Assembly: GCA_964016885.1 (NCBI GenBank)
Contig: CAXHJY010000183.1
Location: forward strand, 15,769 to 79,768
DNA: 64,000 nucleotides
From: Eledone cirrhosa
Lineage: Eukaryota
Direction: 5' to 3'
This document shows, piece by piece, positions 4,971-50,987 of the stretch. The position numbers were made by a program, and so were the translations under genes. How positions within the stretch are numbered: the stretch's first letter is position 1; each line of letters begins with the position of its first letter. The notes below the pieces were generated by a model that saw only the letters and a program-made list of their open reading frames with translations, was not told where the DNA came from and searched no databases.

Positions 4971-5600
4971 CTAAGAGTTTTCTCCTTCAAAGTAATCCCC
5001 CTGGAGTCTAATGCACTTTTCCATCCTTTTCTGCCACGCTTGCATGCACTCCTGGAAGGATTCTTCAGGGATCCTCCGCAGTTCTGTTTTGATGACGTCC
5101 ACGTCTTTAAAACGGGTCCCCTTGATGACTCCCTTGAGCATCCATGACTCATCACTGGTGATGACTGTCCCTAGCAAGTCTGGTTCGGTTTCAAGACGCT
5201 CGAGGATGTCCAGGCACACTTGCATGCATCGACCCTTCTGGTCATTGTTCAGCAGTTTTGGCACCATCTTCGCACAGACTTTCCGCATGCCCAAATCTTC
5301 AGTGAGAATCTTCCAGATGCTGTCCCGATTCATGCCCAGCTCATTTGCCATCAGTCGAACAGTCAGCCGACGATCGCTACGCACCATCTGCCTGATGCGC
5401 TCAACGTTGACCTCAGTCCTGGTTGTTGAGGGCCTTCCGCTCCTGGGGTCATCTTCCACGTCCTCGCGTCCTTCTTTAAACCTCTTGCACCACTCAAAAA
5501 CACATGAACGTGACATCGTCTCATCTCCATACACTTGCTGCAGCAATCCCAGTGCTTCTGATGGAGTTTTCAAGTTTGTTCATTGCTCTGTGCTCATTGC
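4971..5600 (-). pseudogene. Mariner transposase pseudogene: HTH domains retained, catalytic core deleted in frame
   Basis: Motifs DDPRSGRP, KMVPKLL (WVPHEL-like), TSDESW fused directly to C-terminal LKG..RF, and GDYFE. There is a stop codon near the N-terminus. Confidence 0.85.
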
Positions 5601-27067: not shown

Positions 27068-30000
27068 CATGCTGTAAAATGGAGGGGTAGAGAGGGCCCT
27101 TGAGTCTAGTAAGACATCCTCTCTAGTGCTGGTGGCACAAATAAAAGCACCCAGTCCATGCTGTAAAGTGGCGCTGGTGTTAGGAAGGGCATCCAACCAG
27201 TGTATCAATGCCAAAAAGCTTATCAGCACAGCAACAAAACAGCATAGAAAAATATGAAGACGTCGCATCTCAGAGTTGCAACACTTAATGTTGGCACTCT
27301 CAGAGGTAGGTCTGCTGAAATAGCGGAGATGCTGGAGAGAAGGCAGGTGGATGTGTGCTGCGTGCAAGAGGTGAGATGGAGGGGTGCCTCTGCGAGACTA
27401 GTCGTAGGCAAGCGTCTTAGCTATAAGCTATTCTGGGTAGGTAAGGATGATGGGTTAGGGGGAGTAGGCATTTTCCTGGCTGAGAAATGGATCAATAAGA
27501 CAATAGAGGTAGTTCGAGTTAGTAATCGAATAATTAAGCTTAGATTAGTTGTAGGTAGGAGACTACTGACAATCATCTCGGTCTATGCTCCCCAAGCAGG
27601 CCTAGGCAAAGATGAGAAAGACTGCTTTTATGAGCAACTTTTGCAAACAACCACAATGACAGAGGACGGAGACATCGTTATGCTAGCAGGAGACTTCAAT
27701 GGTCATGTTGGACAGCTCCAGGATGGTTACACTGGGGTACATGGTGGGCACGGTTACGGTTCAAGAAATGAAGAAGGAGTGAGACTTCTTGAATTTTGTG
27801 ATGCAAGTACATTGACTATTTGCAACACAAACTTCCAGAAACCTGCCAATCACCTAATAACCTACAAATCTGGTGAGCACATAAGCCAGATTGACTTCCT
27901 GCTAGTTAGGCAGCGGGACAGGCAGATAGTGTCTAATACCAAGGCATACCCTGGGGAAGAATGTACCCCACAGCATAGGTTAGTTGTTAGTGATATCTCA
28001 GTAAGCAAGAGATGGAATGAGACATATAGGAAGGTGTGGAGAAGAAAGGTCTGGAAGCTAAAAGACCTTTCACTAAAATTCAAATTTAGGAAAGCCCTTC
28101 AAGATGTATATGACGAAAAAGAAGACGATTTAGAGACGTATGACATAGATAATAACTGGAAGTTCTTACGTGACAACTTGCTGAAGGCTACTGATGAAAC
28201 CTGTGGCTGGAGCAGAGCTCCAACCAGACAGAGAGTGACCTGGTGGTGGAACAGCAGTGTAGATAAGGCTATTAGAGACAAAAGACTAGCATGGAAGGCT
28301 TGGAATAAGGGTGGGAGTAGGGAAGAATATACAGCCACTAAGAGAGAAGCTAGACGTCAGGTGTACTTAGCACGCAGGGAGGCAGAGAGTAGGAGGTTTG
28401 CCAATGTTCTGCGACGGGAAGATCAGAGGCGTGCGGTGTTCCACATTGCAAGGCAGTGTGTCAATGCAAATCAGGATGTTGTTGGTGATAAATGTGTCCG
28501 GGATGATGCCGGTGTACTTAGTGTCACGAATGACCAGAAAAAGGAGGCCTGGAAATGTCATTATGAGAGACTGATGAATGTGGAGAACGAATGGGAGAGA
28601 GAGAAATTACCCTTGGTAGATCCGACAGAGGGACCAGCTATTGAGATTGACGAATATAGGGTCCAAGAGGCGATTAGGGAAATGAAAAATGGTAAGGCGG
28701 CCGGACCATCGGGAATAGTTGCTGAGATGCTGAAGGCATCAGGGGACGTAGGCACTAAACTGGTTGCACGCATAATCAATCAGGCTATATATGGTGGTGT
28801 CATACCCAAAGACTGGTGCAGCAGTATTCTCATAAATTGCTACAAAGGTAAAGGGGATGCTTTGGAGAGGAGCAATTATAGGGGTATAAAACTGATAGAT
28901 CAGGTTATGAAAGTGGCAGAAAGGATTCTAGCACAACTAATTAGAGAAAGGGTCAAACTAGATGAGATGCAGTTTGGTTTTGTGCCTGGGAAGAGTACAA
29001 CAGATGCCCTCTTCTTGGTGAGACAAATGCAAGAGAGGTTCTTAGAGAAGAATAAGCCACTATACTTAGCCTTTGTTGACCTAGAGAAGGCCTTTGATAG
29101 GGTACCCCGATCTGTCATCTGGTGGTCCCTAAGGAAGCTGGGTGTTGAGGAATGGCTTGTAAGGACAGTGCAAACTTTGTACAGAGGTACTCTCAGTAAA
29201 GTCAGGGTAGGAATGGAGTTTAGTGAGGAATTCCAGATACAAGTAGGAGTACATCAGGGTTCGGTCCTCAGCCCGCTCTTGTTCATTATAGTCCTCCAAG
29301 CCATAACAGAGGAGTTTAAGACTGGCTGTCCATGGGAACTTCTCTATGCTGACGATCTGGCTCTTATGGCAGAATCAGTAGAGGAGCTAGAGAATAAATT
29401 CCGGCTATGGAAACAGCAGTTGGAAGCAAGAGGACTGAGAGTAAATCTAGCTAAGACAAAAGTGTTGATGAGTAGAAAAGAGGACAAAACCCTGATTCCG
29501 TCAGGGAAATGGCCATGTTCGATATGCAGAAAAGGAACTGGCATAAATTCTATAAAATGCACACAATGTAGGTCCTGGGTACACAAGAGATGTAGCGGGA
29601 TAGCAGGCAAACTAACAGGTAGGGAGAAATATGTATGCAGTAGATGTACAGGGAAATTAGACAGTAGAAGTCGCACTGATAGACACATTTTTCAAATGCG
29701 AGAGGGCGCTATAGAAGTGGTGGATAGCTTCCGGTACCTAGGAGATCAGATTAGCATGGGAGGAGGGTGTTCCGAGGCCATAGTATCTAGAATAAGGACG
29801 GGTTGGAAGAAGTTTAGGGAGCTGCTTCCTCTGTTGACGAAGAAGGATTTCTCCCTGCGTACGAAAGGCCGGTTGTATGATGCCTGTGTGAGGAGCGCGA
29901 TGCTGCATGGTAGTGAGACATGGGCAGCTACCGCAGAAGATATGCGACGGCTGGAGAGAAATGAGGCAAGCATGCTCCGTTGGATGTGCAGTGTAAATGT

Positions 30001-30350
30001 GCGTGAACGACCCAGCATAAATGTGTTGAGAGAGAAACTGTGTCTGAGAGGGATAGAATGTAGTGTACGGGAGAGGAGACTGAGGTGGTATGGACATGTG
30101 ATGCGCATGGAGGATGACCGATGGGTGAAGAAGTGCCAGGAAATGCCAGTTGAAGGAAGACGTGGTAGAGGTAGACCACGAAAAACATGGGCGGAGGTGG
30201 TGAGAACAGACCTCAGATCATTGAAGCTCACGGTGGAGATGACGAGGGACCGTGACGAGTGGAGAGATGCTGTGCTGAATAAGACCCGTCCCACCCTTGC
30301 AAGCAGGGAAAAGCGGACGTAAAATGATGATGATGATGATGATGATGATG
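27068..30350 (+). mobile_element. Full-length, potentially active RTE-clade LINE (family A)
   Basis: Single intact ORF, short 5'UTR with the 'ggtgttaggaagggcatcc' motif, and a (GAT)n tail directly after the stop. The 5' boundary is approximate. Confidence 0.92.
27254..30322 (+). CDS. RTE polyprotein: APE endonuclease plus reverse transcriptase with a C4HC3 zinc finger
   Basis: TLNVGTL, VQE, VYAP, GDFN, QIDF and QHRLV (endonuclease). NYRGIKL, QFGF, FVDLEKAFD, GVHQGSVLSP, YADD and FRYLG (RT). Confidence 0.95.
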   Translation: MKTSHLRVATLNVGTLRGRSAEIAEMLERRQVDVCCVQEVRWRGASARLVVGKRLSYKLFWVGKDDGLGGVGIFLAEKWINKTIEVVRVSNRIIKLRLVVGRRLLTIISVYAPQAGLGKDEKDCFYEQLLQTTTMTEDGDIVMLAGDFNGHVGQLQDGYTGVHGGHGYGSRNEEGVRLLEFCDASTLTICNTNFQKPANHLITYKSGEHISQIDFLLVRQRDRQIVSNTKAYPGEECTPQHRLVVSDISVSKRWNETYRKVWRRKVWKLKDLSLKFKFRKALQDVYDEKEDDLETYDIDNNWKFLRDNLLKATDETCGWSRAPTRQRVTWWWNSSVDKAIRDKRLAWKAWNKGGSREEYTATKREARRQVYLARREAESRRFANVLRREDQRRAVFHIARQCVNANQDVVGDKCVRDDAGVLSVTNDQKKEAWKCHYERLMNVENEWEREKLPLVDPTEGPAIEIDEYRVQEAIREMKNGKAAGPSGIVAEMLKASGDVGTKLVARIINQAIYGGVIPKDWCSSILINCYKGKGDALERSNYRGIKLIDQVMKVAERILAQLIRERVKLDEMQFGFVPGKSTTDALFLVRQMQERFLEKNKPLYLAFVDLEKAFDRVPRSVIWWSLRKLGVEEWLVRTVQTLYRGTLSKVRVGMEFSEEFQIQVGVHQGSVLSPLLFIIVLQAITEEFKTGCPWELLYADDLALMAESVEELENKFRLWKQQLEARGLRVNLAKTKVLMSRKEDKTLIPSGKWPCSICRKGTGINSIKCTQCRSWVHKRCSGIAGKLTGREKYVCSRCTGKLDSRSRTDRHIFQMREGAIEVVDSFRYLGDQISMGGGCSEAIVSRIRTGWKKFRELLPLLTKKDFSLRTKGRLYDACVRSAMLHGSETWAATAEDMRRLERNEASMLRWMCSVNVRERPSINVLREKLCLRGIECSVRERRLRWYGHVMRMEDDRWVKKCQEMPVEGRRGRGRPRKTWAEVVRTDLRSLKLTVEMTRDRDEWRDAVLNKTRPTLASREKRT

Positions 30351-39417: not shown

Positions 39418-39740
39418 ATCATCATTTCATTCATCATTTTATTTTACACCCGCTTTTTCCCTGCTTGCAAGGGTGGGACGGGAACTGATTTTGGCTTGAT
39501 TTCTACAGCTGGATGCCCTTTCTAACACCAACCTCATTTACAGTGAGTGCTGGGTGCTTTTTTGCCGTGGAATGATATGGACCCCAGTCCCTATCATCTC
39601 ATTTCTACAGTTGAGTAAACTGGAGCAATGTGAAATAAAGTGTCTTGCTCAAGGAAACAACACATCACCCAGTCTGAGAATTGAACTCACAACCTTTCGA
39701 TTGCAAGGCCAATGCTCTAACCACTAAGCCATGTGCCTCC
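39418..39740 (-). mobile_element. tRNA-CORE-RTE SINE with a small internal deletion
   Basis: Matches 23627-23965, with a deletion between two gtgg microhomologies. Confidence 0.9.
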
Positions 39741-39957: not shown

Positions 39958-41262
39958 CAGGGTGGGGCATAATTCCTGTTACAATGTTTTAAATCAATTT
40001 TAAAAATACATTATGTTGCTAAAATAACTAATATATGTGTATCAAATCCATGCACTATAACCATATTAACTATTTTTCAGAACATTACACCATTAACAAT
40101 TTGCAATGTCCATAGAATTGTAAAGAAAGTTCATAATAGAGAAGCATGAAAAAGACCTGACTCCACCCGAGATATTTAAACTGGGGAAAACTCTTATGAT
40201 CAATAGAATGTTGATCAAAAGGACAATCGATCGATTTAAGGAAACTTCCTCGACCAAAGACAGACCTCGTTCCGGACGCCCTCGCACCTCAAGAATACCA
40301 AAACTCATTAAAAGTGTGAGGGAAAAAATAAGGCGCAATCCAAGAAGGTCCATGACAAAAATGGCAGAAGAAGCAGAAACATCGCCGAGAACTATGCGGA
40401 GGATATGTCGAGATGATCTGGGGACGTTACCCTATAAGTTCCAAAAGAGGCAGCTTCTTTCTGCAGCCACAATTGAAAAGAGGCTCTCCAGAAGTAAACT
40501 GTTATTGACCCGCATCAAGGATGGCATGCTGCAAAACATCATCTTTACAGATGAGAAGTTATTCACTGTGCAGCCGTCTCACCATCATCAAAATGATCGA
40601 GTACTTGCAAAAAGTCTCAAATCAATTCCTTCAAGTGTTGGAAAAGTGTTCAGAACACAGAAACCAGCATCAGTGATGGTTTGGGCAGCCATTTCTAAAA
40701 GAGGGATGTCTCTTCTGATATTTGTGCCTCAATGAGTTAAAATTAACCAAGAACTTTACATAAAGGATATTTTGGAAGAAGCACCGATGCCATGGTGCAC
40801 ATCTGTTTATGGCGATGACATTTGGACTCTCCAACAAGATGGAGCAATGAGCCACACTGCTCGCGTAACACAACAGAAGTGTAGAGACCATTGTCCTGCA
40901 TGGGTCAGTAAGGAAGAGTGGCCTTCCACATCACCAGATCTCAACCCTCTCTATTTTTCTTTATGGTCAATTCTTGAGAGTGAAGCCTGCTCTACTCCTA
41001 GCCAAAATATTGAAACTCTAAAATCAAAACTGAATAAAGTATGGGAGAAAATACTCATGGAAACTGTTCGTGCAGCCATCGAAGACTTTCCTAGAAGACT
41101 TCGAGCAGTAGTGAGAGCTAGAGGAAAGCATTTCGAATAAATTTTTGTGCAGTTGTTTAATAGTATATTACTTACTATTTGTTAAAGTCAGATCTTGAAA
41201 TAAATGTTTTTTTCAAGAACTATTTGCATTTTATTTTGTAACAGTTTTCATGCCCCAAACTG
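39958..41262 (+). mobile_element. Tc1/mariner DD37D (maT-type) transposon, full-length but defective
   Basis: TIRs cagggtggggcataa...tgttacaa and ttgtaaca...atgccccaaactg with TA flanks. Motifs RSGRPR, IFTDEK, QQDGA and WPSTSPDLNPL. There are 37 residues between the second Asp and the third position, which is mutated to Tyr. Stop at 40733-40735. Confidence 0.9.
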
Positions 41263-41395
41263 TATATATATATATATAGAAATTTCGTATTTCTAAAGAA
41301 ATACGGTATGTTTACAGGTGAACATTTAGAAAGCCGTAGCTATGCAAAAAACACCAGGGCTAACGCCCTCTGGTGGTGTCCAGCAGAAGGGGGAC

Positions 41396-41441
41396 AACCG
41401 TCGATGCATTTCAAACTTAACTGGTCCTCATCAGGACGATC
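41396..41441 (-). ncRNA. Minimal type I hammerhead ribozyme within a ~335-bp element with inverted termini (41275-41611)
   Basis: gatcgtc CTGATGA ggac-cagttaa-gttt GAAA TGCA TC gacggtt. Palindromic stem III AUGCAU. Confidence 0.85.
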
Positions 41442-41781
41442 CCTCCCATGCTTGCGACTGCTGGATTTCAAAACAGTTGAGAATATATAGTTTTCTTGTC
41501 TGTGTAAATGAGGTGATTAATCTCATTTGCATATGAAGCTGCATAAGTTGGCTCAACTTATAATAGAATAGAATTAGGATTTAGATTCTTTAGAAACACA
41601 AAATTTCTATACATATCTGTATACAGCTATGCCTGAAGCTAAATGTGAGTCTTTAACTCCGTTTTTTTTTTAATTTGAGATATATATATATATATATATA
41701 TATAACGAAGGAAATGTGGTAAGGAACCAGGTGGACCATAACGCACCGAAGTACTCAATACATAGGGTAGTAGAGTGGGTA

Positions 41782-41897
41782 ATAGGAACGAGTAGGACCC
41801 CGACGGCTGAGCTCAAGCCGTTTCGACGGCTAATTCTGGACAGAATTAGCCGTCAAAACGGCTTGAGCTCAGCCGTCGGGGTCCTACTCGTTCCTAT
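41782..41897. repeat. Near-perfect palindrome (57-bp arms, 2-nt loop) containing the 3' half of a hammerhead
   Basis: One mismatch between arms. Minus strand reads GAAA-cggct(tgagctc)agccg-TC-gggg. Confidence 0.85.
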
Positions 41898-41935
41898 ATA
41901 TATATATATATATATACGTATATATAAATATATAT

Positions 41936-42040
41936 AAATGGCTTCTACAGGACTAGAACTGTTTTATTCGAAGGAAATCATTAGAGCTTTCCTGATGATT
42001 TCCCTTGAATGAAAGAGTTCTAGCCTTGTAGAAGCCATTT
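41936..42040. repeat. Fold-back element (~48-bp arms) with a hammerhead core
   Basis: aaatggcttctaca...tgtagaagccattt. CTGATGA at 41992-41998 and GAAA at 42011-42014. A terminal fragment also occurs at ~36862. Confidence 0.7.
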
Positions 42041-42599
42041 CTATATTAAATATTTATACTCCGATTGAACCTGGGATACAGAGAGAGATGATGATGATGA
42101 TAAATGGAACAGAATTAGGAAAAGAGTGAGAAGTAAAACAGAAAGAATTTGAAGGGAGGTGGCAAGGTAGGAACAAATGATTGTTATATAAAAATGACAG
42201 AGGATGAGGAGAAACAGACATATACACAAATAAACTTTTCAGAAATATATTCAAATCCAAATCCAGAGCCTGCTCACTCCGATAGGAGGAAAATATCCTT
42301 GGTTGACCTCACTGCTTTCTGTTTGATTTTAGTCATGCCAGCAGGTATATAGCTGTACTCACTACATTTGGCCAATCGTGGGTTGGTGAGGTTATTTAAC
42401 CCCTTAGCATTTACATTTCTCTATATTTACTATTCTATTTTCACAGAAAGGCTTTACCTCACATAGTATCAAAGCTATGAGATTTTGATTTTATTTATTT
42501 TGAGACCAATACCTTAACATTGGTATGAGTGGCCAATTACGGCTAGTTTAAAGAGAAAGAGGATTCATTATCATCATTATCAATAATCAACAACTGCTG

Positions 42600-43799: not shown

Positions 43800-46772
43800 T
43801 TAGGTAAGGCGGGTCTTCTCTGTTACTGAGTACCGCCAAAGGTCTCGGTCCAGTGACATTGTCTTGGAGAGGTGTAAGTGTGTGATGTCGGAGTTTATCA
43901 GCTCGTCCCAGGTTTTTCTAGGTCTGCCTATTCCGTGACTACCGTCTATCTTTATTGCCCTGCACTTTGTTATACAGCTATCGACTTTCATGCGCATCAC
44001 GTGTCCATACCAACGTAGCCTTCTCTCGAGTAAACAACATCTGATCCCTCTTATCTCTAATTTTTTCCTTAGTTCGTTTATGCTTTGCCGTTCATGTATA
44101 TTACTGTTACACATCCAGTGGAGCATGCAAGCTTCGTTCCTCTCTAGTCTGCGTATATCCTCTGCACACAATGCCCAGGTCTCACTGCCATGCAGCATTG
44201 CTGTTCGTATGCAGGCATCGTACAACCTGCTTTTCATTTTTAGGGAGAACCCTTTAGCAGCTAATAGTGGTATAAGCTCTCTGAACTTTTTCCAACCAGT
44301 TCTGACTCTAGCTACAGTACTTTCAGAGCACCCTCCCCCACTGCTGATTTTATCGCCCAGGTAACAGAAGCTGTCCACTATTTCTATAGAACCCTCTGCG
44401 CAATTGAAAGAGCTAGTATTTTGTGGGCACTTGCTGCTACTTATTGCACCAGAACACCGGCCACATGTAAAATCTATGTTCTTAGTTAGCTTACCTGTGA
44501 TCCCACTACATCTTTTATGCACCCATACTTTGCATTTAGGACATAAAATGGAGTTTCTACCTACGCCTTTCCTACACACCGAGCACGACCATTTCCCAGA
44601 AGGGATCGCCGCCTTGTTTTCTTTCCTACAAACTAGAACTTTGGTCTTAGCCAGGTTAATTTTAAGTCCTTTTGACTCTAGGCCGTGCTTCCATGTTTGG
44701 AATTTCTTCTCTAGCTCGGCCATTGATTCCGCTATGAGTGTCAGGTCGTCTGCGTATAGAAGTTCCCATGGGCAGCCTGTCTTGAACTCCTCTGTTATAG
44801 CCTGAAGGGCAATAATAAATAGTAGGGGGCTGAGAACAGAGCCCTGATGGACGCCAACTTTTACGCTAAACTCTTCACTATATTCGTTGTTAATTCTAAC
44901 CTTGCTGACTGTTTCTTTATACATGGCTTGTATAGCCCTCACAAGCCATTCGTCAACGCCTAGTTTTCTAAGAGCCCACCAGATAATGGAGCGGGGGACT
45001 CTGTCGAAGGCTTTCTCCAAGTTGACAAAAGCTAAGTAGAGGGGTTTACCTTTAGCTAGGTACTTCTCCTGTAGTTGTACTATGAAAAGAGCGTCTGTGG
45101 TACTTTTGCCCGACACAAACCCGAACTGCATTTCATCTAGGTCAATTCTCTCTCTGATTAGTTGCGCTATTACTTTTTCCGTGACCTTCATGACCTGGTC
45201 GATTAATTTAATGCCTCTATAGTTACTCCTATCTAGGGCTTCTCCTTTACCCTTATAACAGTTAACGATGATGCTGCTATGCCAGTCCTTCGGAACAACC
45301 CCATTCTGTACGACTTGGTTAACTATGCGGGTGACCATGGTGTGTCCCACCGTGCCAGATGCCTTCAGCATCTCAGCAACTATTTCCGAAGGCCCAGCCG
45401 CCTTACCCGTCTTCATATCCTTGATTGCCTTACTTATTATACTCCCCTCGACTAACACTGCTGGTCCCTCTATCGGGTCGATATGGGGGAGACTGTCTTT
45501 CTCCCATTTATTCTCCTCATTTAGTAGCCTTTCATAGTGACACTTCCAAGCTACCTTCTTATCAGCGTCGGTGATGGCAAGTGTGCCATCGTCGTTTAGT
45601 ACACACTTCTCCCCGACAATATCACGGTTTTCCTTGACGCATTGCCTAGCAATCCTGAACACCTCACGTTTTTGGTCATCGCGTTGTAGAACATGCTTGA
45701 ACTTTCTTTCCTCAGCTTCCCTTCTTGCTAAGTACACTTGTCTCCTAGCTTCCCTCCTGGCCACTTGATAGTCTTCTCTACTTCCCCCATCCCGCCATAC
45801 TTTCCAAGCCTGCTTTTTGGCCTTAATTGACCCCTCCACCTTACTGTTCCACCACCATGTTACTCTCCTCCTGCCTACAGGCCTGCTCCAGCCACAGACT
45901 TCGTCTGTCGCCAACAGCAGGTTTGCTTTCAGAAATTCCCACTCTCCCTCTATATTGTTCGACTCTAAATGTTCTTCCTTACTGTCGAAAGCATCAAGTA
46001 ATATGCTTTGAAATTTATTCCTGGCTGTGGGGTCCTTTAGCTTCCATATTTTTCTCCTGAGGATAGTCCTCTTCTGCTGTCGAGTACGTCTCGTCCTGAC
46101 TATGAGGTCGCTAATTATCAGTCTATGTTGGGAGGTGCATTCTTCATGGGGGAGGGATTTAGTGTTTACAACAGACACTCTGTCACGTCTTCTGGTAAGG
46201 ATATAATCTACCTGGCTTGTGTGTTCCCCGGATCTATAGGTGATCAGGTGATTGTCACGTTTTTTGAAGTTAGTGTTACAGATAGTTAGGTTATTTGCAT
46301 CACAGAATTCCAGGATTCTGGAGCCTTCCTCATTTCTAGTACCAAACCCATAGCCTCCATGGATTTCATCGTAGCCGTCACAATGTTGTCCAACGTGACC
46401 ATTTAGGTCGCCTGCAATAATTATATAGTCACTGTCGGATATTTGGGAGGTAGTTAGCATCAGTGTCTCATAGAATCTGTCTTTTATAGTGCCGGGCAGT
46501 CCGGATTGGGGTGCGTACGCAGATATTACTGTCACCGTAGTTCTATTGAGGACAAGTCGTATTTTAATTATTCTGTCGTTCACTCTATTTACGTCTATTA
46601 TCTTATCTGCCCACTTTTCTGCTACCATGATTCCTACTCCACCCAGCCCATTGTCGTTTCCCACCCAGAAAAGCTTATAACATCGTTTTTTACCCTCAAT
46701 GAACCTAGCAGACCCACCCCTCCACCTGGTCTCTTGAATACAACAAACATCGACCTCCTTACGTTCAAGCAT
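43800..46772 (-). CDS. RTE endonuclease-RT polyprotein, open but probably RT-dead
   Basis: Same motifs as family A, but FVNLEKAFD (Asp to Asn, codon 45021-45023) and a one-codon deletion (FIVQLQE). The frame stays open upstream through FRVGTINVGTL without an ATG. Confidence 0.9.
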   Translation of the reverse strand: MLERKEVDVCCIQETRWRGGSARFIEGKKRCYKLFWVGNDNGLGGVGIMVAEKWADKIIDVNRVNDRIIKIRLVLNRTTVTVISAYAPQSGLPGTIKDRFYETLMLTTSQISDSDYIIIAGDLNGHVGQHCDGYDEIHGGYGFGTRNEEGSRILEFCDANNLTICNTNFKKRDNHLITYRSGEHTSQVDYILTRRRDRVSVVNTKSLPHEECTSQHRLIISDLIVRTRRTRQQKRTILRRKIWKLKDPTARNKFQSILLDAFDSKEEHLESNNIEGEWEFLKANLLLATDEVCGWSRPVGRRRVTWWWNSKVEGSIKAKKQAWKVWRDGGSREDYQVARREARRQVYLARREAEERKFKHVLQRDDQKREVFRIARQCVKENRDIVGEKCVLNDDGTLAITDADKKVAWKCHYERLLNEENKWEKDSLPHIDPIEGPAVLVEGSIISKAIKDMKTGKAAGPSEIVAEMLKASGTVGHTMVTRIVNQVVQNGVVPKDWHSSIIVNCYKGKGEALDRSNYRGIKLIDQVMKVTEKVIAQLIRERIDLDEMQFGFVSGKSTTDALFIVQLQEKYLAKGKPLYLAFVNLEKAFDRVPRSIIWWALRKLGVDEWLVRAIQAMYKETVSKVRINNEYSEEFSVKVGVHQGSVLSPLLFIIALQAITEEFKTGCPWELLYADDLTLIAESMAELEKKFQTWKHGLESKGLKINLAKTKVLVCRKENKAAIPSGKWSCSVCRKGVGRNSILCPKCKVWVHKRCSGITGKLTKNIDFTCGRCSGAISSSKCPQNTSSFNCAEGSIEIVDSFCYLGDKISSGGGCSESTVARVRTGWKKFRELIPLLAAKGFSLKMKSRLYDACIRTAMLHGSETWALCAEDIRRLERNEACMLHWMCNSNIHERQSINELRKKLEIRGIRCCLLERRLRWYGHVMRMKVDSCITKCRAIKIDGSHGIGRPRKTWDELINSDITHLHLSKTMSLDRDLWRYSVTEKTRLT

Positions 46773-47064
46773 TTCTACAACCTCGTTAGCGCGACCCTTT
46801 AGGGTGCCTACATTTATGGTACCAACTCTGAAGTTTTGGATTGCGTTTGGGGGTTGGGGGCGGTGGGCGATGGGGTTATGTTAGCCGTCCGCGGTCGAAA
46901 CAATGAGGAGTGCTCGCATTCTCGTCCAAGAGGTGAATTCGTCTTTATCTTTGGCATTGTCGCTGAGCGTCCAGATTTTTCTCTCTCTCCTCCACTCTCC
47001 AGGATTCCGCAGTCCATCCATCCATCATATATCGAAAGGCAACCAGGCAAGCGATAGTATAGGC

Positions 47065-47156: not shown

Positions 47157-48917
47157 GTGGGGGCGGGAGGGAGGGGTGTTGGGTAGCTAGATAGGAGGTA
47201 ATGATTGAATGGGGTCCTTGCACATTTAACAAGCGATTAACAAAAATACAAAATTTGTTCTGTTCAATACGACCAAAAACTTTCGTATCTAACAATTAAT
47301 AAATACAAAAAATGTAGATTGTTTTAGCGATAGATTGGCTATTTGGACTTGATACGAAATATGGATTGTTTTGAAAATACGCTAGAATTAGGAATTGAGG
47401 TTTGTGGAGGTAGAGATGAATACGCTAGAATTATATTGATAGTCTGTGGTACTGGGAAGACCACAAATCAAAGAAGTACATCATACATAGTATGATAGAG
47501 TGGGTGTATTACTAAATGCTATTCTGTACTACAGAATATATATATATATATACAGATTTTTATGTATAGACACATGAAAATACCTTGTCTCTACATACAA
47601 TATCTTTGTGGTTAGAAAATACAACCAGATTACATTCAATCCTGTGTTGGGATTTCATCACAAACTGACTACCCTCTTGTTGTATGAAATTTATAAATTA
47701 ATATATTCTAACATAATTTTATCTAATAACCACTAGTTATCTAATAACCACATGTTACAATGAAATAATAATTTTAGTAAGTCCCTTAAACATCATGTAA
47801 AAATTTAGAAGAAAATATATAAAAATTGGCTTGTTAATTCAAATGTTTATCTTTTCTAGTGAACAGATTGTTGTGAAAATTAGCAGAATTAGAGTCAAGA
47901 CATCAATTTGTAATATGAGGCTATCATAGTGCTGCTTTGTATTTTTTAATAATGTCTTCTTAATGTAGCATCATGCAGTGGATTTTATTAGAAATACAGT
48001 TATCTTCTTCGTCTACTTCTTCCTGAGAGGGTCATGGGATAAGAGTCCTCAAACACGACTTCCAGCCGGTTGTGTCAGATAAACCAACTCCAATTAATTC
48101 AGCCGGATCGCCAAGTAAGACTTGCTGAGCTCATAGATGTTATCCAACCATCTTGCTAAAGGTCTACTCATGGTCTCCTACCAGTTGGATTTGCCTGTAA
48201 AATCTGTACAGCGATCAATTTTTTTATGAATTGCTTATGGAACTTCTAATTACAGTGTCAGTAAACTAGACACAACAATTTGCACATATGATGCATTGAT
48301 ATAGTAAGAGCTAAAATATACATATACACATATATATATATAGACACACATAAAAATACATTCAAATATGAGCCAGTGTTAGTCACAATTCTGTGTTTCT
48401 TTTCCCCAACACTCATATACATATGTGTGTGTGTGTGTATGCAGGATATCTGTAGATAAAAAGTCAAAGAAAACAATGCTCAATCTATTGCAAGGGAGCT
48501 TATATAGTATAATTAAAATTTCATACACTTAGTTTTGACCTGCACCTGATTAGTGACCAGCTTGAAATGGCTCCTCTACTATAGAGTGGTATCCATGACT
48601 AGACCCTGAAAGCTAAGATCACACGTATATATATATATATGTCCTACTCATGCTAGCGTGGAAGATGGACGTTAAACGATGATGATTATATATATATATA
48701 TATATATATATATTCTATGTAAATATAATACTTATTGTATCACAACAGGATTTTTTTAACCTAACTGTATTGTTCTTTGCAAAATACTAGATATGTGGTT
48801 TCCTATGATATTGGCAGTGTGCATCCATTTTGGGGTCTTGGATTTTTAGCTTCAATTCTCTCATTGAGCGATCATAGAGCGCCATGATTGTAAAATATTA
48901 TATATCAATCCCTTGAT

Positions 48918-49534: not shown

Positions 49535-50785
49535 AAAAAAAAAAAATCTCTATATATATATATATGTACATGCACACATACACACACATGTTCATATATA
49601 TGTGCATACACACACAGACAGATGCATGTAGACATACACATGCATGTGCACACACATTATACATACATATAACAGAGGGTGCTGCAATTTTCTCAAAGGA
49701 TTGTGGAATATAAAAAATGTGTAGATTTTGAAAGCTAATACAATGCAAATGGAGCTGTAAGTATCAAGGTAACAACACTGGATCATTAATTCTAGATTTG
49801 ACACATATTAGCTGTCAATATGAGAATTAAAGAACATTTCTTAGTGTCTGCAGATTCCACCAATCAGAAATTAGATACTTCTATCACACAGATACAATGA
49901 AGAAATTAAATTCAGTGAGTCATATGTTCACTGAATCTACACCAGGATGGAACTATTTTACCTGCGACATATCAACATAACCACTTCACATGCATTAATG
50001 GATCGTGAAAATGTTATTTATGCCCAGGTGAAAGATGGAGTATTCTCAGAAACCTATCTCCCAAAAAGAGATGCATGAGATACTCATTTTGATTTCTCCA
50101 ACCGCTGCTCACATGAAACAAAATTCATTTCAAAGTATTTTTTGAGGCCAGACAGAGTCTATAAGACACTCCTTAAGAATCATTGACTCTTATACATTAA
50201 CTGTGAACATAAATCAGACTCATTTATTAAACATTAGAGTTTTCAGCCTTACTTTAATCCCCTAGGCCCTAACGTTTATGCTACCTAATTACTCCCCTTT
50301 CCTTAGAACTCTTATATGAAAAAAGGTATTCAAGAAGTCAATCCACCATAATAGGGCGAACGGATGAGATTACGTATTTCAATATGCTAATGAAACACGA
50401 GTAATCGTGTTATGTAAATATTGTTGTAATTTAATTTAATTCTGTGTGTGTACATATGAAAGCATATACTATATGTTTATAAACAACAAACATATGGAAG
50501 CCTTGCTATCAAAGAAGAAATGTTTTCTCATTACAAAAAAAATTACTTTTTATCACTTTTGTTCGGTGAGCACATCACATTATATAAGTAGCAGTCTTGA
50601 AACAGCACTGTCTGGCATTCTCAACTGCTACTAACTTTCTGTGATGTGTTTAAAGAACAAAAGAGAGAAAAAATAATTTGTTTTTGATATGTTTATTATA
50701 TAGTATATGCTTATTTCCAGCAAATGTTCATTATGCAAACTTTGTATAGAACCTTGTCTATTTTCATGTCAGTACCGGTTGAATG

Positions 50786-50834
50786 ATGTTACTGATGAGA
50801 GATTAACAAATCTTGAAACAGTACTGTCTGATAT
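50786..50834 (+). ncRNA. Minimal type I hammerhead ribozyme
   Basis: atgtta CTGATGA gagatt-aaca-aatctt GAAA CAGTACTG TC tgatat. Palindromic stem III and GUC triplet. A partial upstream copy lies at ~50596-50640. Confidence 0.88.
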
Positions 50835-50987
50835 TCTTGACTGTTACAGACTTTCTGTAACAAGGTGAGTAAAAACAATTACTTTCATTACTTCTGAATT
50901 CACTAAACATAGTTTATAAGCCATTCACTATTTATTACCTAATTTTGGTAGTTGTGTTCATTACATATGTCTACATATGAGAGAGTC

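What the first reader, a model, noticed from the sequence alone, without database searches (positions are those of the whole stretch)
41703..41897. Palindrome pivoting exactly on hammerhead stem II: footprint of snap-back cDNA synthesis
Seen: the minus strand reads cagaattagccgtc-GAAA-stem III-GUC-gggg and continues ~80 nt to (TA)n. Where CUGANGA and stem I should lie there is instead an inverted copy of the downstream sequence, with its axis in the would-be stem II loop. Inference: reverse transcription stopped in stem II, the cDNA folded back and self-primed, and a hairpin insertion resulted.
Basis: partly seen in the sequence, partly recalled or inferred. Interest (0 to 1): 0.8.

Follow-up and report, generated by a model that had tools for sequence, protein, structure and literature searches.

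The report
Back-to-back half-hammerhead repeat insertion
This palindrome is two head-to-head copies of a very abundant short repeat that carries what is likely the downstream half of a hammerhead ribozyme; it is likely an inverted insertion of the kind Penelope-like jumping genes are known to leave, not a new system.

Summary
The palindrome is real: 57-bp arms at 41782-41838 and 41841-41897, 56 of 57 matched, in (TA)n. Public runs show a very abundant family (17,306 contigs in one run), mostly single-armed: depth past the axis falls to about 1%, so it is no ordinary MITE. Monomers stop at about 41841 and abut (TA)n at 41782 or, likely, at 41705 (optional 77-nt tail). The window copy is a tailed monomer joined to an inverted tail-less one, the known inverted-pLTR layout of Penelope-like elements. 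GAAA-stem III-GUC exceeds chance (3 of 5000 shuffles). A longer relative has an imperfect helix II whose loop holds the axis. But none of 9 shown loose-end rows past the axis has CUGANGA or stem I (605 rows hidden). The perfect 'stem II' is made by the palindrome itself. Junctions mostly lack microhomology (8 of 9), so I favour joining of two target-primed cDNAs over snap-back; the two are not separated. No autonomous partner was found. Verdict: likely a new member of a known kind, modest interest.

The parts
41680..41704 (.). (TA)n run, left flank; likely the target, no TSD discernible
   Evidence: (12.5 copies, 100%)
41705..41781 (-). 77-nt optional extension ('tail'), present on one arm only
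   Evidence: relatives with (TA)n directly before 41782/41794 in all four runs (table 7)
41782..41841 (-). 60-nt core monomer of a very abundant repeat family, arm 1; most relatives end at about 41841
   Evidence: tables 2 and 7; depth ratios
41794..41801 (-). segment after GUC that would be the 3' strand of stem I; no partner strand seen
   Evidence: table 7
41802..41824 (-). GAAA, 6-bp stem III with near-palindromic loop, GUC: likely 3' half of a type I hammerhead
   Evidence: features as in PMC4209133
41825..41832 (-). likely 3' strand of helix II
   Evidence: pairs imperfectly with the continuation in a longer relative (table 7, by eye)
41833..41841 (-). 9-nt variable segment, likely loop II; holds the palindrome axis (spacer 41839-41840) and the monomer end
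   Evidence: table 7 (two colinear variants of this segment)
41841..41897 (+). inverted copy of the core monomer, arm 2; lacks the last 3 nt of the monomer end and the tail; GAAA decayed to AAAA at 41855
41895..41916 (.). (TA)n run, right flank

Best explanation
The feature is a tailed 137-nt monomer joined head-to-head to an inverted 57-nt tail-less monomer of a very abundant repeat family, inside a (TA)n run, and it was likely made by a Penelope-like retroelement enzyme that primed one cDNA from each target strand and joined their ends. Shown: the anatomy, the mostly single-armed family, its shared end near 41841, a second end on (TA)n at 41782, and other inverted junctions anchored on the 41841 end. 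Inferred: the RNA is the minus strand and derives from a pLTR whose hammerhead has lost its 5' half; reverse transcription starts at two internal sites (41705 and 41782); both cDNAs stop at the template end in loop II and are joined without homology, which puts the axis at the monomer end.
For:: 17,306, 17,804 and 478 contigs and 24,786 of 12.47 million reads lie on 176 nt. X1 depth is 4.42M at 41815-20, 0.62M at 41839-44 and 0.036M at 41863-68 (0.8%; X2 0.9%, X4 0.2%), while left-edge bins keep 18-38%. Loose ends before 41782 and 41794 are (TA)n in all 4 runs. Of 15 joints shown, 12 tie a variable point (41747-41811) to 41832-41843 in inverted orientation; 8 of the 9 listed as opposite-strand have no shared letters. 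One shown joint goes back 113 nt (partial tandem). Six of 24 shown pieces cross the axis. The layout (inverted 5'-truncated copy, tail at one end only, (TA)n bias) is described for PLEs in PMC8557442. A purified PLE cuts and extends both target strands and starts at two internal sites that define the tail (PMC11167929). The distal end lies 97 nt from GUC, against about 85-92 nt from cut site to the named start site in that element. Two complete palindromic-loop type I hammerheads lie in the window, one 270 nt from the element, against 0 in 60 shuffles.
Against: No ORF or autonomous partner was found (no genome held; the one protein hit is a tandem-repeat artefact). No CUGANGA or stem I was seen in relatives. 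The tail (77 nt) is longer than the 30-40 nt described. PLE 5' truncations are described as variable, while this family has a shared end. The arms share alleles at every polymorphic site shown, which one template (snap-back) explains more simply. A hairpin closing the GAAA loop (-8.0 kcal/mol) competes equally with stem III (-7.7). X1 and X2 are one sample and may be the assembly source; X16's drop at 41835 is likely a RAD cut site at AATT and is not counted. Two of the joint points (41747, 41788) sit beside sites where relatives differ from the window, so true junctions may lie further on. The 41705 end was at the edge of the laid stretch and is not directly tabulated.
Confidence: 0.5

Rival explanations
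1. Same PLE-type element, but the inversion arose by snap-back: one full-length cDNA folded on itself at its 3' end and copied back to the TA word at 41782.
For: Arms are 56/57 identical while axis-crossing relatives differ from the window copy at 12-21 letters; P(<=1 mismatch) is 0.018 at 10% divergence but 0.21 at 5%. Joints anchored on the monomer end with a variable partner point are also what fold-back predicts. Discussion of PMC3846280.
Against: No shared letters at 8 of 9 opposite-strand joints. The tip offers 1 bp and a 2-nt loop. Priming by helix II would leave the 9-nt loop unpaired, which is not seen here. The second arm ends exactly at the family's other common end.
Confidence: 0.28
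2. The family is a non-autonomous Helitron-like DNA element read on the plus strand (16-nt hairpin 41816-41831, about 10 nt, then CTAA); GAAA is just that hairpin's loop, and the palindrome is an aberrant dimer.
For: Shared end with a subterminal hairpin that is the preferred fold of the monomer. C+TAA follows in 5 of 6 loose-end rows at 41832/41841. No CUGANGA seen.
Against: The T required after CTRR follows in only 1 of those 5 rows; a seventh row reads CTAT; no 5' TC start; two alternative (TA)n-abutting ends; a longer relative runs through the 'end'. Defining features from PMC11417382.
Confidence: 0.12
3. A palindromic subfamily arose once and has since moved as a unit (MITE-like).
For: Three shown pieces cross the axis in the same register with no gaps (pieces 6-8).
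Against: Palindromes are a few percent of the family at most; two pieces cross with 5-6 gap letters; the element is asymmetric (tail on one side); arms match each other better than other palindromic copies.
Confidence: 0.07
4. Fold-back artefact of sequencing or assembly.
For: No shown record spans this exact locus.
Against: Axis-crossing contigs in three short-read runs from two samples; a CpG-type difference between the arms; clean (TA)n junctions on both sides; X1-X3 hold 65-67% of the region's words.
Confidence: 0.03

Closest known systems
Insertion units of endonuclease-positive Penelope-like elements (pLTR plus inverted 5'-truncated copy, optional tail; PMC8557442, PMC3846280, PMC11167929)
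   Same: Head-to-head inverted pair, tail on one end only, (TA)n flanks, hammerhead-type motif about 100 nt from the distal end, a hint of partial tandems.
   Different: No ORF found; most copies share one 5' end; tail 77 nt; only the 3' half of the hammerhead is present.
PLE type I / minimal hammerheads (PMC4209133)
   Same: GAAA, palindromic stem III region, C11.1 before GAAA, a helix II of about 8 bp in the longer relative.
   Different: No CUGANGA and no stem I; stem III (6 bp) is longer than the 1-2 bp usual in metazoan motifs.
Non-LTR retrozymes (PMC7229834; bioRxiv 10.64898/2026.07.22.740005)
   Same: Short, non-coding, high-copy, hammerhead-related, proposed to derive from PLEs.
   Different: Dispersed 60-137-nt units with half a ribozyme, not tandem arrays of 150-450-bp units with whole hammerheads.
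Non-autonomous HLE1 Helitrons (PMC11417382)
   Same: Shared end preceded by a short GC-rich hairpin; CTAA in several consensus rows.
   Different: No 5' TC, no consistent T after CTRR, two alternative ends on (TA)n.

Membership tests
Type I hammerhead ribozyme | GAAA, A15.1-U16.1, stem III and NUH triplet | tested here: met
   41824-41802 on minus; 3 of 5000 shuffles
Type I hammerhead ribozyme | CUGANGA core 5' of helix II | tested here: not met
   Absent in the element; absent in 9 of 9 shown loose-end rows past the axis, 605 rows hidden; 4 of 7 match in the longer relative
Type I hammerhead ribozyme | Helix II closed by G10.1-C11.1 | tested here: inconclusive
   Not formed by the monomer; imperfect helix of about 8 bp in a longer relative, judged by eye from a loose-end consensus
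Type I hammerhead ribozyme | Stem I partner for the strand after GUC | tested here: not met
   No cccc in the 4 nt visible at that place in the longer relative
Type I hammerhead ribozyme | Self-cleavage at GUC | not testable with these tools
   No RNA raw reads were listed; needs an assay
Penelope-like element insertion | Inverted truncated copy adjacent to the 5' end | tested here: met
   Window anatomy; 12 of 15 shown joints and 6 of 24 shown pieces
Penelope-like element insertion | Optional tail at one end only | tested here: met
   77 nt, longer than the 30-40 nt described; (TA)n before 41782/41794 in 4 of 4 runs
Penelope-like element insertion | Bias for (TA)n or AT-rich targets | tested here: met
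   flanks past 41841 are AT-rich and mixed rather than (TA)n
Penelope-like element insertion | Shared end sequence with an RT plus GIY-YIG ORF | not testable with these tools
   No genome held; the 45-residue frame found only a tandem-repeat artefact
Penelope-like element insertion | Variable 5' truncation | tested here: not met
   Most copies end at about 41841; a minority runs longer
MITE | All copies with two inverted ends, fixed length and TSD | tested here: not met
   Depth past the axis about 1%; asymmetric element
Helitron HLE1 | 3' hairpin plus CTRR, inserted between A and T | tested here: inconclusive
   Hairpin present; CTAA in 5 of 6 rows, T after it in 1 of 5
Helitron HLE1 | 5' TC end | tested here: not met
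   The other end begins on (TA)n with no TC
Non-LTR retrozyme | Tandem units each with a whole type I hammerhead | tested here: not met
   No tandem array here; no whole hammerhead

The most novel reading that the evidence does not exclude
The family is a SINE-like mini-element made of exactly one half of a split hammerhead: it starts in loop II and carries helix II 3' strand, GAAA, stem III, GUC and stem I 3' strand. A parent RNA would supply CUGANGA in trans, so a genome holding some ten thousand or more copies would encode trans-cleavable ribozyme substrates, with the palindromes marking where both cDNAs end.
Probability: 0.06. Interest if true: 0.8.

Novelty: new member of a known kind. 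Interest (0 to 1): 0.33.

Why it matters
As a single palindrome it is an ordinary by-product of a kind described for Penelope-like elements. Its use lies in the family: a huge set of short copies with a shared end and two (TA)n-side ends gives many independent inverted junctions. Sorting their arms by subfamily would tell self-priming from two-strand priming, which the 2013, 2021 and 2024 papers read here leave open. If the split-hammerhead reading held, it would be a natural trans-acting ribozyme pair spread by retrotransposition.

Tried and rejected
No whole genome is held, so the proposed genome BLAST could not be run. Rfam: no hammerhead family at gathering score in the window (1 tRNA-like match); in 41200-42200 all 35 matches are below gathering, mostly hairpin-driven. 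Pattern scans: 0 in metagenomes, 0 in viral contigs; a looser 20-nt pattern gave 2 metagenome and 1 genome locus, GC-rich with unrelated flanks, rejected as chance. No second copy of the core in the window. No RNA holder listed. The minus-strand open frame of 45 codons was rejected: a common variant adds 2 nt, and the only hit (P0001) is a 51-residue tandem repeat with 26-30% identity. HDV-like and tRNA-SINE readings were rejected by eye: no P1 partner, no A box. Strand bias of transitions (p = 0.004 in X1, 0.03 in X4, 0.12 in raw reads X16) was too weak to use. X16's 7270 molecule ends at 41835 were set aside as a likely restriction cut. Earlier-findings look-ups by sequence and place gave nothing.

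Full report
Observation. The element lies between two (TA)n runs (41680-41704 and 41895-41916) in a repeat-rich, apparently animal window that also holds two RTE-type LINE ORFs with RT and AP-endonuclease domains ('RTE' is my recalled label). It has 57-nt inverted arms, 41782-41838 and 41841-41897, with a 2-nt spacer. They differ at one place, 41824 C against 41855 A, a CpG-type transition. The fold has z = -18.4, and 0 of 200 shuffles reach it. This half-motif appears in 3 of 5000 shuffles of the 60-nt monomer, and 8 of 474 non-simple hairpins in window 1-53000 are framed that way. It is more than chance, though not unique. The 14-bp 'stem II' is circular evidence: any inversion with this axis makes it. 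The monomer's own 17 nt before GAAA do not fold, and a hairpin that closes GAAA as a loop (-8.0 kcal/mol) is as stable as stem III (-7.7).

The family. No genome is held, so I laid 4 of the 18 listed runs on 41695-41870. X1 and X2 are one sample and may be the assembly source; X4 is a second sample of that study; X16 is raw RAD reads from another study. 17,306, 17,804 and 478 contigs and 24,786 of 12,467,656 reads were laid, so the family is very abundant. My rough inference is ten thousand copies or more; the tool warns that depth is no copy number. X1 depth falls from 4.42M (41815-20) to 0.62M (41839-44) and 0.036M (41863-68), a ratio of 0.8% (X2 0.9%, X4 0.2%), while left-edge bins keep 18-38%. 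Most copies are therefore single-armed, and the 'ordinary MITE' refutation is not met. X16 is left out of this count because 7270 molecules end at 41835, likely a cut at AATT.

Ends. Table 7 shows 24 loose-end rows and hides 605. Before 41782 (96, 106, 9 contigs; 3568 reads) and before 41794 (a variant with 2 extra nt; 102, 105, 11; 1407) the letters are (TA)n, so many copies lack the 77-nt segment 41705-41781. Past the axis, copies like the window's end at 41841 in mixed AT-rich flanks (agreement 0.45-0.46). A second variant has a different but colinear 9-nt segment at 41833-41841. None of the 9 shown rows past 41832 carries the complement of CUGANGA. However, the X16 consensus (1737 reads, agreement 0.76) continues for 21 letters, and the contig consensuses of X1, X2 and X4 match it at 13, 12 and 13 of 21 places and at 8 of their 9 G/C letters (my count). 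A longer multi-copy form thus exists. Read on the minus strand, by eye, it forms an imperfect helix of about 8 bp closed by G-C just before GAAA, with 41833-41841 as its loop. The seven letters at the core position, allowing the extra nucleotide described in PMC4209133, match CUGANGA at 4 of 7, and no stem I partner is visible. So 'axis in the loop of helix II' is plausible, and the predicted intact parent was not found.

Junctions. Of 15 joints shown (8 hidden), 9 are opposite-strand and 3 are the same geometry mapped onto the second arm. All 12 tie a variable point (41747 twice, 41754, 41756, 41757, 41760, 41776, 41788 four times, 41811) to 41832-41843. Eight of the 9 have no shared letters. 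The points 41747 and 41788 lie beside places where relatives differ, so they are approximate, and several joints rest on sides under 30 nt. One joint goes back 113 nt, a partial tandem. Six of 24 shown pieces cross the axis with 12-21 other letters: three without gaps, one with one gap, two with 5-6 gap letters. Palindromes near this axis therefore recur. The window's arms (1 mismatch in 57) look more alike than these copies are to it (P = 0.018 at 10% divergence, 0.21 at 5%), which suggests separate origins or arm homogenisation.

Mechanism. The anatomy matches the described PLE insertion: an inverted 5'-truncated copy next to the 5' end, a tail at one end only, and a (TA)n bias (PMC8557442, passages; PMC8969392, passages). 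A purified PLE cuts and extends both target strands and starts reverse transcription at two internal sites that bound the tail (PMC11167929, parts 1-2 of 4 and passages). I infer that each target strand primed a cDNA, one at 41705 and one at 41782, that both ran to the template end in loop II, and that they were joined without homology (0.5). Snap-back is the main rival (0.28). It explains the matched arms, and self-priming was proposed for such palindromes in PMC3846280 (passages and Discussion). Against it, fold-back through helix II would leave the 9-nt loop unpaired, while here the loop itself is inverted around a tip with 1 bp and 2 nt. The data cannot exclude either. Why most copies share the 41841 end is unexplained: a truncated master, a stall at the helix top, or annealing of the following TA to the target would all fit.

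Context. Two complete type I hammerheads with palindromic loops lie in window 1-53000 (cores at 41434 minus and 50792 plus), against 0 in 60 shuffles. The first sits in an element at 41260-41626 with a short inverted end, its cleavage site 124 nt from (TA)n. Directly right of the finding, 41930-42046 is an older palindrome (85%) with a decayed hammerhead whose axis lies just 5' of CTGATGA. This AT-rich spot thus holds what look like three PLE-type insertions, which makes that reading likelier for the finding but does not prove it.

Against my reading: no ORF or partner, no core, no stem I, a long tail and a shared 5' end unlike the variable truncation described for PLEs. A Helitron end (hairpin, then CTAA in 5 of 6 rows) is a real alternative, but the following T appears in 1 of 5 rows and there is no 5' TC (features from PMC11417382, passages). 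It does not meet the retrozyme definition of tandem units with whole hammerheads (PMC7229834, passages; bioRxiv 10.64898/2026.07.22.740005, part 1 of 5).

Novelty. It works like an inverted PLE insertion; it is not a hammerhead by membership, and PLE membership is likely but untested for lack of a partner. I saw no description of this family in the listings of eight word searches or in passages of PMC13282606. These were not sequence searches, no supplements were read, and repeat libraries such as Repbase and Dfam, where it may be filed, were not on hand. The host is not established; that the window resembles an octopus genome is a recalled impression. One earlier AI note from another genome (e1-9995956) reached a similar verdict on another small palindrome; I did not check it and do not count it as support. 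Interest 0.33: the structure and the self-priming idea are in print, and the value lies in the family as a test set.

Noticed in passing
window 41260-41626 (hammerhead 41396-41441, minus): Complete minimal type I hammerhead (7-bp stem I, core at 41434, palindromic 4-nt loop III, H17 at 41403) in an element with a 41-nt inverted end; looks like a solo pLTR with an inverted stub.
   Followed up: partly
window 41930-42046: Second, older palindrome (55-nt arms, 85%) directly beside the finding, with a decayed hammerhead on the plus strand whose axis lies just 5' of CTGATGA at 41992.
   Followed up: partly
window 50785-50835 (plus): Complete type I hammerhead with an 8-nt palindromic stem III region.
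   Followed up: partly
window 46880-46930 (minus): Just upstream of a LINE ORF (43800-46880) the sequence looks by eye like a slightly decayed HDV-type ribozyme and shares two short words with the element around 41820-41833; the resemblance is recalled and untested.
   Followed up: no
window 47459-47505: 74% match over 47 nt to the element's tail; 0 of 300 shuffles score as high. It shares the window copy's two rare alleles (41748, 41762). Unexplained.
   Followed up: partly
window 41695-41870 (variants): G>A is shown at 7 of 9 CpG sites of the monomer and no C>T row is among the 40 shown (42 hidden); the bias is significant in contigs but not in raw reads.
   Followed up: partly
window 27248-30322 (plus) and 43800-46880 (minus): Two open LINE ORFs of about 1025 residues with AP endonuclease, RT and a PHD-like finger.
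   Followed up: partly
window 39670-39733 (minus): tRNA-like match at the gathering score, likely a SINE head.
   Followed up: no
window 4971-5579 and 40124-41140: Broken frames that look like Tc1/mariner transposases (label recalled).
   Followed up: no
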